Positions 2,439 to 3,957 of a DNA stretch of 8,108 nt are shown piece after piece. Source of the DNA: a virus. Lineage: Duplodnaviria; Heunggongvirae; Uroviricota; Caudoviricetes. Made by a program: the position numbers and the translations under genes. Position 1 is the first letter of the stretch; the number at the start of each line of letters is the position of its first letter. The notes beneath the pieces are model-generated. The model was not told the origin of the DNA. It was given only the letters and a program-made list of their open reading frames with translations, and ran no database searches. The stretch lies in the IMG/VR virus record IMGVR_UViG_2690316086_000017; one strand, written 5' to 3'.

Positions 2439-2560
2439 TCCCCACTACTCCCCACTTTTGCTCCCCACTTTTTTGGGTATATACAGGTGGGAAAGTGGGT
2501 AATTATGTTTCAATTTTGTTAAATTCCCCACTCCCCCCACTTTTACTCCCCACTTTTTAC
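2438..2560. repeat. iteron array flanking an AT-rich core; candidate replication origin
   Basis: Six direct CCCCAC(T)n copies at 2440, 2450, 2463, 2526, 2535 and 2548 (12-bp consensus CTCCCCACTTTT), an inverted copy AAAGTGGG at 2492-2499, and an AT-rich stretch at 2500-2525. Sits immediately 3' of the rep stop codon. Confidence 0.65.
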
Positions 2561-3957
2561 AGCGGGCGCACGTCATCACCGTCAATAACGATTACGCCAT
2601 CATTTTCCAGCTTGTACAGCCAGCGCCGGAAGTGCTTCATCTCATACCCCAGCTTTTTCATATCGTCGCGGAGAAGGGCGATAGTGCACGCCTCCCCGTG
2701 TGCTGTTCGTGTTCTGATGCACTGCCATAGCGCGGCGTGATTCTCCGTCTTGTTCCCTGCCTCCTCGATGCGCTCCAGTTCAACGGGAGGGCGCGGCTTA
2801 TCCACCACCACCAGCGACGTGATTAACTCCCCGTCAGCGTCGGTAAAAAGCTCCACCACGCGTAAGTCATATGCTGCTTCTTTGAGTTCCTCCGCGTCCT
2901 TCATTTTGGTACATGAGATAACCAGCGCTTCGCTGCCTGCGTCCTCCCTGCGTATCCGGTATTCGGCGTCCAGTGATGCACGAAATGCACTGGAACCACG
3001 CGCCCCCTTTGTTTCATCCTTGCCGGAATGGTGAACCACCAGCACCGTTGCCCCTGTGCGCCGTTTCAGTTCGTCACACCCACGGATAAACGCCCCCATA
3101 TCACGGGAATCATTTTCATCATTGCCGCCAAAGCAGCGCGCCAGCGTATCCAGAATAATCATTCGAACCGGTTTACCCGTTTCCCGTTCCACCTGACGGG
3201 CAGCGATAACCATTTCCTCAACATCAAGCGGGGCAGCCGGAAAGATGGGACGGTTTACCAGATACAGATTTTTCACCTGCTCACCGTGCACAACCTCCCA
3301 GGCTTTTACACGACGCGGAACGCCGATACCGCCTTCACCAACCACATAGAGAACAGCGCCATGCGCCACCCTGCGGCCTCCCCACTGGCGGCCCGTGGAA
3401 ACGTGACACGCCCACGAACCCGCAAGGAACGATTTATATGAACCGCTCGCCCCGTATATGCTGCACAGCGATACCGCCGGAATAATCCCCTTAACCACGT
3501 AATCAAGTTGTGTGTCGTATCCGGCAGATCCCACGCTCATTGGTAGCGTGGTTTTTCGCTGGTGGTGTTTTTCTTCCCCTGGCTTTTTCCCCCGCTCCCG
3601 TTCCAGATATTCGCGCCAGTTCTCCCGCTTCTGGCTGTGCATCCCTTCGGGGTAATAATTCGCATCAGTTACACCCGCCGCCGCCAGCTTGTGCGCAATG
3701 GCATTAATATTTGATGGCCTGATGTGGCCTGCCTTGTACAGCCGGACACAATAGCGCCCCTCGTCGATGATTCTCAGGTCTGCCAGTTCATCCAGTTGAT
3801 CATCAGCCAGCACAACGGGAGGCACATTATCGCCAGCCAGTCGCCCGTCCTGTTCCTGCCACTGTTTCGCATGTGCCCAGGCATCACTACCCGCAAAAAT
3901 AATGACTTCGGTCATCTTGTCGTAAGGCTGTTTTTTTAAGTTCGGTGCGCTTTTCAT
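2557..3957 (-). CDS. replication initiator / helicase-like ATPase (RepA / AAA_25-type RecA-fold)
   Basis: 466-aa ORF with a P-loop-like GASGSYKS, Walker-B-like VRMIILDTL and the VLVVHHSGKDETKG block typical of RepA/AAA_25 ATPases, plus an N-terminal domain of about 150 aa. Its ATG overlaps the upstream stop as ATGA. An alternative start at 3915 (MTEVIIF) is possible. Confidence 0.8.
   Translation of the reverse strand: MKSAPNLKKQPYDKMTEVIIFAGSDAWAHAKQWQEQDGRLAGDNVPPVVLADDQLDELADLRIIDEGRYCVRLYKAGHIRPSNINAIAHKLAAAGVTDANYYPEGMHSQKRENWREYLERERGKKPGEEKHHQRKTTLPMSVGSAGYDTQLDYVVKGIIPAVSLCSIYGASGSYKSFLAGSWACHVSTGRQWGGRRVAHGAVLYVVGEGGIGVPRRVKAWEVVHGEQVKNLYLVNRPIFPAAPLDVEEMVIAARQVERETGKPVRMIILDTLARCFGGNDENDSRDMGAFIRGCDELKRRTGATVLVVHHSGKDETKGARGSSAFRASLDAEYRIRREDAGSEALVISCTKMKDAEELKEAAYDLRVVELFTDADGELITSLVVVDKPRPPVELERIEEAGNKTENHAALWQCIRTRTAHGEACTIALLRDDMKKLGYEMKHFRRWLYKLENDGVIVIDGDDVRPL

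What the first reader, a model, noticed from the sequence alone, without database searches (positions are those of the whole stretch)
2557..3957. Rep ATPase with a deviant P-loop (GASGSYKS) and an uncharacterised N-terminal domain
The core is clearly RepA/AAA_25-like (the HHSGK block), but the Walker A position normally occupied by glycine before the lysine is tyrosine. The first roughly 150 residues match no motif I recognise; they may be the origin-binding domain that reads the CCCCAC iterons.
Basis: partly seen in the sequence, partly recalled or inferred. Interest (0 to 1): 0.35.

Follow-up and report, generated by a model that had tools for sequence, protein, structure and literature searches.

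The report
Satellite-island replication helicase, tyrosine P-loop
This gene is the replication initiator-helicase of a small phage-satellite island in E. coli; its odd ATP-binding loop is normal for a large branch of its family, and its C-terminal domain, not its unknown N-terminal domain, reads the origin repeats.

Summary
Window 2557-3957 (- strand) is an intact 466-aa ORF with a strong AAA_25/RepA match. Its Walker A is GASGSYKS, with Y174 at the canonical glycine. About 125 N-terminal residues match no known domain. Six AGTGGGGR iterons lie just 3' of the stop.

- **P-loop.** Tyr/Phe at this position is a trait of a large sub-clade, not a local oddity. All 120 close homologues have it, as do 78 of 137 alignable 50%-identity representatives and the helicase-primase of one Jerseyvirus checked. 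All other catalytic residues are intact.
- **N-terminal domain.** It is a confidently predicted α/β fold (pLDDT 93) with no PDB match. It recurs in Enterobacterales islands, fused to three unrelated helicase classes.
- **Iteron reading.** The N-terminal domain does not track iteron sequence. The predicted winged-helix C-terminal domain does. In 12 of 12 loci, His versus Asn at residue 442 matches GTGGGGA versus GTGAGGA iterons. Two of those were predicted before looking.

The gene sits in a decayed PICI-type island at tRNA-Pro and is already annotated "helicase RepA family protein". It is best seen as a new variant of a known kind, of moderate interest.

The parts
2557..3957 (-). rep: 466-aa replication initiator-helicase (RefSeq WP_000833625.1, 'helicase RepA family protein')
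   Evidence: ORF; annotation; AAA_25 E = 2.6e-43; full-length match to phrog_2850.
3589..3957 (-). N-terminal domain (aa 1-123): uncharacterised alpha/beta module, topology b-a-b-a-b-a-b-a
   Evidence: No Pfam hit. AF2 pLDDT 93.1, pTM 0.87. No PDB fold match, best E = 0.15. One BFVD match to an uncharacterised 112-aa phage protein, E = 3.9e-4. Fused to AAA_25, D5_N/DUF5906/Pox_D5 or DUF927 helicases in other islands.
3520..3588 (-). Linker (aa 124-146), low-complexity and charged, variable in length among homologues
   Evidence: pLDDT below 50 for 124-132; indels in the alignment.
2788..3519 (-). RecA-fold ATPase/helicase core (aa 147-390), RepA/AAA_25 type
   Evidence: Pfam match. Profile match to RSF1010 RepA 1G8Y, E = 2e-10. 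E208, D270, H309, H310 and G321 invariant and R320 in 136 of 137 representatives.
3430..3453 (-). Walker A GASGSYKS (aa 169-176); Y174 codon TAT at 3436-3438 replaces the canonical second glycine
3019..3039 (-). VVHHSGK (aa 307-313), helicase motif 3 / sensor histidines
   Evidence: H309 and H310 invariant in 137 of 137; aligned to the HH of RepA.
2560..2760 (-). C-terminal domain (aa 400-466): predicted winged helix (three helices plus a beta hairpin), proposed iteron reader; H442 codon at 2632-2634
   Evidence: AF2 pLDDT above 90, helices 405-419, 426-435 and 443-452, strands 456-459 and 462-465. Sub-threshold hits to winged-helix families. Residue 442 His/Asn matches iteron position 4 G/A in 12 of 12 loci.
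2525..2554 (-). ori, rep-proximal iteron triplet (AGTGGGGA, AGTGGGGG, AGTGGGGA)
2470..2524 (.). ori, AT-rich spacer (55 bp, 29% G+C) holding two degenerate inverted iteron-like copies (ACCCACT, TCCCACC on the - strand); probable melting site
   Evidence: The organisation matches that described for PICI origins (PMC6092414).
2439..2469 (-). ori, rep-distal iteron triplet (3 x AGTGGGGA); the last copy abuts the ATG of the next ORF (2193-2438)
3954..4253 (-). DUF4222 gene (99 aa); its stop overlaps the rep start (ATGA). It lies directly upstream of rep genes carrying this N-terminal domain, whatever their helicase class
   Evidence: No co-variation with the N-terminal domain.

Best explanation
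The ORF encodes the Rep protein of a small phage-satellite (PICI-type) island. It combines origin recognition and helicase function, and its origin lies immediately downstream. It has three modules.

1. **C-terminal domain (aa 400-466).** A predicted winged helix binds the AGTGGGGA iterons. These are arranged as two triplets around an AT-rich spacer. His442, at the N-cap of the third helix, reads position 4 of the iteron (G). Asn at the same place goes with A.
2. **ATPase core (aa 147-390).** A RecA-fold, RSF1010-RepA-like motor. By analogy with RepA and other ring helicases it is assumed to form a ring, melt the AT-rich spacer and unwind DNA. Its P-loop has Tyr174 where almost all P-loop NTPases have Gly. 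This aromatic residue (Tyr or Phe) is the commonest state across a large sub-clade and is probably compatible with ATP hydrolysis, because the Walker A Lys/Ser, motif 1a Glu208, Walker B Asp270, His309/His310 and the putative arginine finger Arg320 are all conserved.
3. **N-terminal domain (aa 1-123).** A separate, exchangeable alpha/beta module that does not set origin specificity. It is most likely a protein-protein adaptor linking the helicase to priming or to another host or island factor. In close relatives of the ATPase the same slot holds a Zn-ribbon+Toprim primase, a DnaB N-terminal domain or a PriCT-2 domain.

**Shown here:** the domain boundaries, the family assignment, conservation of Tyr/Phe, the iteron architecture, and the co-variation between the C-terminal domain and the iterons.

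**Inferred:** ring formation, ATPase and helicase activity, the direct His442-guanine contact, and the role of the N-terminal domain.
For: **Family and motifs.** AAA_25 E = 2.6e-43. The profile of the Tyr/Phe clade matches only RSF1010 RepA in the PDB (E = 2e-10), with K, E, D, HH and RGSS aligned. These residues are invariant or nearly so in 137 representatives.

**Tyr/Phe clade.**
- All 120 close homologues, down to 59% identity, have G[AP]SGSYKS.
- Among 137 alignable 50%-identity representatives the position is Y 45, F 33, L 7, G 47. Gly becomes common only in the more distant ones.
- Salmonella phage vB_SenS-Ent2 (Jerseyvirus) gp43, 'replicative helicase-primase', has GESGTYKS.

**Context.** The order int, AlpA-like HTH, Icd/ash, DUF4222, rep, ori, TerS, capsid, at tRNA-Pro, matches E. 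coli PICIs and is collinear with EcCICFT073. In EcCICFT073 the rep-ori segment drives plasmid replication, and PICI origins are two iteron sets flanking an AT-rich region 3' of rep (PMC6092414).

**Iterons.** 7 copies against 0.31 expected.

**C-terminal domain reads iterons.**
- L030 and L035 differ only by N/H in the last 66 residues and have GTGAGG versus GTGGGG iterons.
- The window and L036 differ by H442N plus three distal residues, with the same switch.
- Helix-1 type, ATPase type and N-terminal domain type do not track the iterons.
- Two predictions made beforehand, for P0029 and P0055, were correct.
- SaPI Reps use a C-terminal winged helix for iteron recognition (PMC9371898).

**Modularity of the N-terminal slot.**
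Against: - No biochemical data exist for any member of the Tyr/Phe clade that I could find.
- The AF2 model is unreliable around the P-loop (pLDDT about 30 for 148-172), so how Tyr is accommodated is unknown.
- In other P-loop proteins a side chain at this glycine impairs nucleotide binding (for example Ras G15A; this is from my own knowledge).
- The winged-helix assignment rests on predicted topology and sub-threshold profile hits only.
- The His/Asn to G/A rule comes from related, recombining E. coli-group sequences. The number of independent switches is small, at least two backgrounds.
- The island is decayed: it has ash/icd pseudogenes, a truncated capsid gene, and an ori about 95 bp shorter than in relatives. 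Function of this particular copy is therefore not assured.
- The role of the N-terminal domain is argued only from its position in the protein. DUF4222 and the N-terminal domain do not co-vary.
Confidence: 0.75

Rival explanations
1. One reading: the N-terminal ~150 residues are the origin-binding domain that reads the CCCCAC/GTGGGG iterons.
For: The domain is uncharacterised and lies in a protein that must recognise the adjacent origin. Many plasmid initiators bind iterons through N-terminal winged helices (general knowledge).
Against: - N-terminal domains only 42% (L023) and 55% (L032) identical to the window's go with the same GTGGGGA iterons.
- N-terminal domains 86-87% identical to each other (L023 and L025) go with GTGGGG versus GTGAGG.
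- An N-terminal domain 84% identical to the window's (L031) goes with GTGAG iterons.
- N-terminal domains 46-62% identical, fused to SF3 or DUF927 helicases, go with unrelated iterons such as TGTCTACC, GGGACAAC, GTATTCACC and TGAACCAAC.
- EcCICFT073 Pri-Rep: N-terminal domain 65% identical, iterons TGTCTACC.
- The predicted fold is alpha/beta Rossmann-like, not HTH.
Confidence: 0.03
2. Tyr174 disables nucleotide binding or hydrolysis. Rep would then be an ATPase-dead origin binder that relies on host DnaB/DnaC for unwinding.
For: The second Walker A glycine is close to universal, and a side chain there is known to damage nucleotide binding in other P-loop proteins (my own knowledge). The AF2 model is disordered around the P-loop.
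Against: - The Lys175/Ser176 positions, Glu208, Asp270, His309/310 and Arg320 are invariant or nearly invariant (S or T at 176) across 137 divergent representatives, including the Tyr/Phe ones. This is unexpected for a dead site.
- The residue is restricted mainly to Tyr/Phe, less often Leu, rather than drifting.
- The same variant occurs in the annotated replicative helicase-primase of the one Jerseyvirus checked.
- It also occurs in relatives fused to Toprim primase or DnaB N-terminal domains.
Confidence: 0.1
3. The N-terminal domain is a cryptic or degenerate primase (Toprim-like) domain. Rep would then be a true 'Pri-Rep' primase-helicase, as database names for relatives ('DNA primase') suggest.
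For: - phrog_864 'DNA primase' matches aa 3-122 (E = 1.5e-14).
- NCBI names for fragments and fusions carrying this domain are 'DNA primase'.
- The b-a-b-a-b-a-b topology resembles Toprim.
- There are weak BFVD similarities to DnaG TOPRIM-domain proteins (E = 0.08 and 0.48) and to phage primase/helicases.
- The homologous slot in relatives holds real primase domains.
Against: - There are no Pfam Toprim, AEP or zinc-ribbon hits.
- hhalign against the Zn-ribbon/Toprim N-regions of 23 relatives gives probability 0.06%.
- There is no significant PDB fold match.
- The Toprim signature (Glu at the end of strand 1, plus DxD) is absent. The strand ends F-A-G, and the invariant acidic residues are only E17 and D43.
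- The 'primase' names probably derive from the P4-family helicase part (D5_N, DUF5906, Pox_D5) of the fusion partners. That is my inference.
Confidence: 0.1
4. In this particular island the gene is a non-functional relic. The element is decaying, and rep/ori persist without replicating.
For: RefSeq marks ash and Icd-like pseudogenes in the island. The capsid gene is 308 aa, against 613-629-aa protease-capsid fusions in related islands. The ori has two iteron clusters where relatives carry extra middle iterons and about 95 bp more.
Against: The rep ORF is intact. It is 100% identical over the whole 8.1 kb in many O26/O103 genomes. All catalytic residues, the C-terminal domain and six perfect or near-perfect iterons of matching specificity (His442 with GTGGGG) are retained.
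Confidence: 0.15

Closest known systems
RSF1010 RepA hexameric helicase (PDB 1G8Y, 1NLF, 1OLO)
   Same: It is the only solved structure detectable by sequence (E = 2e-10 with a clade profile). It shares the RecA-fold core, with Walker A Lys/Ser, motif 1a Glu, Walker B Asp, the HH motif and the RGSS arginine finger all aligned.
   Different: RepA has the canonical G-K-S (GGAGKS). It is a bare ~279-aa helicase with neither the N-terminal nor the C-terminal domain, and it depends on a separate initiator, RepC (that last point is my own knowledge). Here Tyr174 replaces the glycine, and the polypeptide also carries a predicted origin-reading domain and an extra N-terminal module.
EcCICFT073 Pri-Rep and ori (E. 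coli PICI; Fillol-Salom et al. 2018, PMC6092414)
   Same: The islands are collinear: int, AlpA, Icd, small ORFs, DUF4222, rep, ori, then packaging and capsid genes. The N-terminal domain is the same (65% identity over aa 1-122, E = 3e-50). The ori design is the same, with iteron sets flanking an AT-rich region right after rep. The paper shows that the EcCICFT073 rep-ori segment supports replication.
   Different: The helicase part is unrelated. Its near-identical relative L003 scans as D5_N/DUF5906/Pox_D5 (SF3), whereas this protein has a RecA-like AAA_25 core. The iterons differ (TGTCTACC against GTGGGGA), and the C-terminal regions are not alignable.
SaPI Rep / PriRep5 self-loading helicases (Qiao et al. 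2022, PMC9371898)
   Same: The logic is the same: an N-terminal domain of unknown function, an ATPase ring, and a C-terminal winged helix that reads penta- or hexanucleotide iterons placed directly downstream of rep. Initiator and helicase are one polypeptide.
   Different: The SaPI ATPases are AAA+ (SF3 or MCM-like). This one is RecA-like (SF4/RepA-like), for which 5'-3' polarity is expected by analogy with RepA. There is no sequence similarity.
Toprim-primase/AAA_25 helicase fusions (for example P0121, 699 aa; T7 gp4-like layout)
   Same: They share the ATPase plus C-terminal domain (69% identity over aa 128-463) and the GASGSYKS Walker A.
   Different: Zn_Ribbon_Prim plus Toprim_3 occupies the N-terminal slot in place of the uncharacterised domain.
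Jerseyvirus replicative helicase-primase (Salmonella phage vB_SenS-Ent2 gp43)
   Same: AAA_25-type core with the same aromatic Walker A variant, GESGTYKS.
   Different: Only about 28% identity. It is a lytic-phage protein of 728 aa with a different N-terminal region, and no iteron origin was examined.

Membership tests
RepA-like / Pfam AAA_25 RecA-fold helicases | Significant match to the family profile | tested here: met
   PF13481, 148.4 bits against a gathering score of 27, E = 2.6e-43. 1G8Y RepA E = 2e-10 with a clade profile.
RepA-like / Pfam AAA_25 RecA-fold helicases | Canonical Walker A GxxxxGK[ST] | tested here: not met
   The sequence is G169-A-S-G-S-Y174-K175-S176. The Lys and Ser are present, but the second Gly is Tyr. 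The same holds for 88 of 137 representatives: Y, F, L, C or R.
RepA-like / Pfam AAA_25 RecA-fold helicases | Motif 1a Glu, Walker B Asp, motif 3 His, arginine finger (as listed for RepA-type helicases in PMC8965321) | tested here: met
   E208, D270, H309 and H310 are invariant in 137 of 137, and R320 is present in 136 of 137. All are aligned to the RepA residues.
RepA-like / Pfam AAA_25 RecA-fold helicases | Hexameric ring, ATP-dependent 5'-3' unwinding | not testable with these tools
   Needs biochemistry or cryo-EM.
PICI replication module (rep + ori) | ori immediately 3' of rep, made of two iteron sets flanking an AT-rich region | tested here: met
   Triplets at 2525-2554 and 2439-2469 flank a 55-bp spacer of 29% G+C, starting 3 nt after the stop codon. 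The definition is from PMC6092414.
PICI replication module (rep + ori) | Island context: integrase, AlpA-type regulator, one direction of transcription, packaging genes, specific att site | tested here: met
   int, HTH/AlpA-like, Icd/ash, DUF4222, rep, TerS and a capsid-like gene are all on one strand, next to tRNA-Pro between yejM and yejO.
PICI replication module (rep + ori) | rep-ori supports autonomous replication; induction by a helper phage | not testable with these tools
   Shown experimentally only for EcCICFT073, which has a different helicase class (PMC6092414).
SaPI-type self-loading Rep (N-terminal domain, ATPase, C-terminal winged helix) | C-terminal winged-helix domain determines iteron specificity | tested here: met
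   Predicted H-H-H-b-b topology with pLDDT above 90. Residue 442 His/Asn matches iteron G/A in 12 of 12 loci, including two made as prior predictions. This is co-variation, not binding data.
SaPI-type self-loading Rep (N-terminal domain, ATPase, C-terminal winged helix) | AAA+ ATPase of SF3 or MCM type | tested here: not met
   The core is RecA-like AAA_25 with RadA, Rad51 and KaiC-type similarities. It works like a SaPI Rep but is not a member.
Toprim / DnaG-type or P4-alpha-type primase (for the N-terminal domain) | Profile match to Toprim, zinc-ribbon or AEP domains; conserved Glu and DxD | tested here: not met
   No Pfam hit at E <= 10. hhalign probability 0.06%. Foldseek PDB best E = 0.15, and BFVD TOPRIM hits at E = 0.08 are not significant. 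No DxD among the conserved columns.

The most novel reading that the evidence does not exclude
The ~120-aa N-terminal domain, always encoded right after a translationally coupled DUF4222 gene, may be a previously unrecognised, helicase-independent initiation adaptor of enterobacterial phage satellites. It would be one portable module that connects replicative helicases of three different superfamilies (RecA-like AAA_25, SF3, DUF927) to the host replisome. Those helicases are expected to differ in translocation polarity. The connection could be made, for example, by recruiting DnaG primase or another replisome or helper-phage factor.

In parallel, the Tyr/Phe-for-Gly P-loop may define a mechanistically distinct sub-class of RecA-like ring helicases in which the aromatic side chain takes part in nucleotide binding or gating.
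Probability: 0.3. Interest if true: 0.65.

Novelty: new variant of a known kind. Interest (0 to 1): 0.42.

Why it matters
PICI-type satellites move virulence and defence genes among enterobacteria, and their replication modules are usually labelled simply 'primase-replicase'. This locus gives three concrete leads.

- **Mix-and-match Rep proteins.** In E. coli satellites Rep is assembled from parts: one N-terminal module, any of three helicase motors, and an origin-reading C-terminal domain. This helps explain why trees of the primase-replicase genes are strongly paraphyletic (PMC10085698).
- **A one-residue recognition rule.** His442 goes with G and Asn442 with A at iteron position 4. The rule predicts origin specificity from sequence and could be tested in one afternoon of EMSA or plasmid-replication assays. 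It also predicts which co-resident islands should be able to cross-activate each other's origins.
- **An unstudied P-loop variant.** A large, unstudied branch of RepA-like helicases, including that of at least one Salmonella lytic phage checked (Jerseyvirus), carries an aromatic residue at a Walker A glycine usually treated as obligatory. That bears on P-loop enzymology and on the motif-based rules annotators use to call ATPases 'inactive'.

Tried and rejected
- **Foldseek with the full-length AF2 model (pLDDT 68).** It gave only weak Rad51, RadA and KaiC hits and noise, so it was uninformative for the end domains.
- **Reading how Tyr174 is accommodated from the model.** I dropped this because the P-loop region is low-confidence (pLDDT about 30). 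The rules on which sequences can be submitted prevented building a deeper alignment.
- **The search for homologous proteins with the N-terminal domain, alone or as a profile.** It returned almost only short fragments. These helped the AF2 alignment but gave no census of domain architectures. That census came from the genome-contig scan instead.
- **Profile comparison of the N-terminal domain with primase regions.** hhalign against the Zn-ribbon/Toprim N-regions of relatives was negative.
- **PDB sequence and Pfam searches with the C-terminal domain profile.** Only sub-threshold winged-helix-type hits appeared (MCM5_C, MCM4_WHD, HTH_Crp_2, ArsR, MarR, arginine repressor). These are suggestive, not proof.
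- **Test for a co-evolving DUF4222 / N-terminal domain pair.** The identity matrices are uncorrelated (Mantel r = 0.14, p = 0.08). The window and L025 have DUF4222 at 100% identity but N-terminal domains at 44%. A variant-specific partnership is therefore not supported.
- **Literature searches.** Searches for the motif strings, for AAA_25 with Walker A, and for DUF4222 found no functional study.
- **Sequencing error, pseudogene or misalignment as the cause of Tyr174.** I rejected this because the residue is conserved throughout the clade.
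Full report
**Where the window comes from**

The 8,108-bp window is 100% identical to a chromosomal segment of many E. coli O26 and O103 genomes. In strain ML775 it lies between yejO and a tRNA-Pro gene next to yejM. All its genes are on the - strand:
- a tyrosine integrase (6867-8108);
- an AlpA-like HTH gene (6164-6370);
- Icd-like and ash pseudogenes;
- several small ORFs;
- a DUF4222 gene (3954-4253);
- the ORF in question (2557-3957);
- more small ORFs;
- a small terminase subunit (1087-1575);
- a capsid-like gene (1-927).

This gene order is that of Gram-negative phage-inducible chromosomal islands (PICIs). It is collinear with the experimentally studied EcCICFT073 (PMC6092414).

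**Checking the observation**

- The ORF is 466 aa.
- Pfam AAA_25 matches residues 147-315 at E = 2.6e-43.
- RefSeq already names the protein 'helicase RepA family protein'.
- GASGSYKS is residues 169-176, and VVHHSGK is residues 307-313.
- Both a single-sequence and a profile alignment to RSF1010 RepA (PDB 1G8Y), the only solved relative detectable by sequence, put Y174 opposite the glycine of G-K-S. Realignment therefore does not rescue a canonical motif.
- Residues 1-146 have no Pfam match at E <= 10, and the whole protein has no useful NCBIfam match.
- The iterons are significant: AGTGGGGR occurs 7 times against 0.31 expected. Six copies form two triplets around a 55-bp spacer of 29% G+C, starting 3 nt after the stop codon.

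**The P-loop**

All 120 closest homologue clusters, down to 59% identity, have G[AP]SGSYKS.

An exhaustive search of 1.84 billion representatives found 31,961 relatives. Among the 137 best that could be aligned, the residue before the lysine is Y 45, F 33, L 7, C 2, A 2, R 1 and G 47. The closest 32 representatives are all Tyr or Phe, and Gly becomes the majority only in the more distant half of the list.

The rest of the catalytic apparatus is conserved in these 137:
- K175: 137 of 137;
- S/T176: 137 of 137;
- E208: 137 of 137;
- D270: 137 of 137;
- H309 and H310: 137 of 137;
- R320: 136 of 137.

These residues align to the RepA motifs that PMC8965321 lists as the signature of RepA-type helicases.

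The variant is also found in gp43, the 'replicative helicase-primase' of Salmonella phage vB_SenS-Ent2, a Jerseyvirus (GESGTYKS). A mycobacteriophage relative and the Rhizobium phage 16-3 relative keep Gly.

I conclude that Tyr174 is a conserved, selected feature of a large sub-clade and is very probably compatible with ATP hydrolysis. It is not an error, and it is not peculiar to this gene.

How the side chain is accommodated is unknown. No member of the clade has a solved structure. The AF2 model is unreliable there (pLDDT about 30). I found no paper that discusses it.

**The protein is modular**

The ATPase plus C-terminal part (aa ~130-466) recurs with other N-terminal modules:
- Zn_Ribbon_Prim plus Toprim_3 (P0121, 69% identical over aa 128-463);
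- a DnaB N-terminal domain (P0124);
- PriCT_2 (P0128).

Conversely, the N-terminal domain (aa 1-123) recurs without the AAA_25 core. A genome scan returned 21 Enterobacterales loci. In these the domain is fused to D5_N/DUF5906/Pox_D5 (SF3) helicases, to DUF927 helicases, or to a DUF5906/VapE-like ATPase (also P0164 and P0236).

The 584-aa EcCICFT073 Pri-Rep shares the N-terminal domain with this protein (65% identity, E = 3e-50) and nothing else.

**What the N-terminal domain is**

Predicted alone with a 51-sequence alignment, it folds confidently (pLDDT 93.1, pTM 0.87) as an alternating beta-alpha domain.
- Foldseek finds no PDB relative; the best E is 0.15.
- In the viral library there is one significant hit, to an uncharacterised 112-aa phage protein (E = 3.9e-4).
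- TOPRIM-domain proteins appear only at non-significant E of 0.08 or worse.
- A profile-profile comparison with the Zn-ribbon/Toprim regions of relatives is negative.
- The conserved columns include E17, D43 and P46-P47, but no Toprim-like Glu plus DxD.

The domain is therefore genuinely uncharacterised. The 'DNA primase' names on relatives appear to derive from their P4-type helicase parts, not from this domain.

**Which domain reads the iterons**

Recombination among these islands supplies natural domain swaps. Across nine AAA_25 loci the results were:

| Loci | C-terminal domain identity to window | N-terminal domain identity to window | ATPase identity to window | Iteron |
|---|---|---|---|---|
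| L029, L023, L032 | 90-96% | 42-84% | 68-91% | GTGGGGA |
| L025 | 79% | 44% | 98% | GTGAGG |
| L002, L027 | 48-49% | 53-55% | 67-69% | TGCGGC / ATGCGC |

L025 also has an N-terminal domain 87% identical to that of L023, yet the two carry different iterons. Loci whose N-terminal domain is fused to other helicase classes have unrelated iterons.

Reciprocal recombinants narrow the signal to one residue.
- L030 and L035 differ only by Asn versus His in the last 66 residues, and have GTGAGGA versus GTGGGGA iterons.
- The window and L036 differ by H442N plus three distal residues, with the same switch.
- The helix-1 variants (WQCIRTRTAH versus WGCIRSRTQ) occur with both iteron types.
- L037 has KHLKRW instead of KHFRRW, and its iterons change at position 6.

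I then predicted GTGGGG for two unexamined His-type proteins in other backgrounds, P0029 and P0055. Both predictions were correct. In all, 12 of 12 loci obey the rule that His goes with G and Asn goes with A at iteron position 4.

His442 sits at the N-cap of the third helix of a C-terminal H-H-H-beta-beta unit predicted with pLDDT above 90. That unit has only sub-threshold matches to winged-helix families. His-guanine and Asn-adenine pairings agree with well-known amino-acid/base preferences (my own knowledge). SaPI Reps also read iterons with a C-terminal winged helix (PMC9371898).

**What the N-terminal domain may do**

It is always N-terminal. It is always preceded by a DUF4222 gene whose stop overlaps the rep start. 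It accompanies helicases of three superfamilies. In homologues of the ATPase the same slot holds primase or primase-docking domains.

My best inference is that it is a protein-protein adaptor acting at initiation, linking the helicase to priming or to a host or helper-phage factor.

A variant-specific partnership with DUF4222 is not supported. Their divergences are uncorrelated (Mantel r = 0.14, p = 0.08), and the window and L025 share an identical DUF4222 but have N-terminal domains only 44% identical.

**Comparison with known systems**

Functionally this is a self-loading initiator-helicase of the SaPI/PICI kind: N-terminal domain, motor, winged helix, with the ori directly downstream. Its motor, however, is RecA-like (RSF1010 RepA type) rather than AAA+ (SF3 or MCM). 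So it works like a SaPI Rep or EcCICFT073 Pri-Rep without belonging to their helicase families.

It belongs to AAA_25/RepA by profile and by all catalytic motifs except the second Walker A glycine.

**Verdict**

- The gene and its general role are already annotated and expected for this kind of island.
- New at the level of detail are the clade-wide aromatic P-loop, the portable N-terminal module shared by three helicase classes, and the one-residue iteron code.
- This particular island looks decayed, so activity of this copy is uncertain.
- I rate it a new variant of a known kind, interest about 0.4.

Noticed in passing
window 1-8108 (whole island); L001 9001-17403: The window is a complete small island of about 8.4 kb, running from the integrase to a capsid-like gene. 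It lies next to tRNA-Pro between yejM and yejO and is 100% identical in many O26/O103 STEC genomes. It looks like a decayed capsid-forming or classical PICI. RefSeq marks ash and Icd-like pseudogenes at about 5.1-6.1 kb. The 409-aa ORF at 4920-6149 listed mechanically there spans these pseudogenes.
   Followed up: partly
window 1-927 (-): The capsid-like gene is only 308 aa and matches only the C-terminal part of major-head-protein profiles (phrog_617 positions 384-610 of 626). Related islands (L025, L026, L032) carry 613-629-aa Clp-protease/capsid fusions at the equivalent place, so this copy appears N-terminally truncated.
   Followed up: partly
window 2439-2554 compared with L023, L029, L032, L035, L041: The ori here has two iteron triplets. 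Most relatives with the same iteron have about 95 bp more between them: a single iteron, a second AT-rich tract and two more iterons. The window copy looks like a deletion between direct iteron repeats.
   Followed up: partly
window 3954-4253 (-); L003-L037, L034: A DUF4222 gene overlaps the rep start codon (ATGA). It is found immediately upstream of rep genes carrying this N-terminal domain in all three helicase classes, including EcCICFT073. Conserved residues include GDI..D, Y.R.GY and F.R.F. Its function is unknown and there is no literature on it.
   Followed up: partly
window 2480-2500 (- strand CCTGTATATACCC) and the same place in L002, L023, L025, L027, L029-L032, L035-L037: A (C/T)(C/G)TGTATA(T/C)A motif sits inside the AT-rich spacer of all AAA_25-type origins, even where the iterons differ (for example L002 and L027). 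It could be the unwinding element, a host-factor site or a -10-like promoter element.
   Followed up: no
window 2193-2446 (-): The ATG of the next ORF (81 aa, phrog_1231, function unknown) directly abuts the last iteron (AGTGGGGA-ATG). Rep binding at the origin could therefore occlude translation or transcription initiation of the downstream gene.
   Followed up: no
window 3535-3549 (aa 137-141 LPMSV) and 3514-3534 (aa 142-148 GSAGYDT): A G-S-x-G-[YF]-D motif about 25 residues upstream of the Walker A is present in 77-84% of Tyr/Phe-clade representatives but in only 11% of Gly-clade ones. It may be a clade marker linked to the aromatic P-loop, or simply phylogenetic signal.
   Followed up: partly
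window 914-1075 (-) and 1087-1575 (-): A 53-aa ORF just downstream of terS matches the middle of the same small-terminase profile (phrog_641 positions 89-126). This suggests a duplicated or fragmented terS remnant.
   Followed up: no
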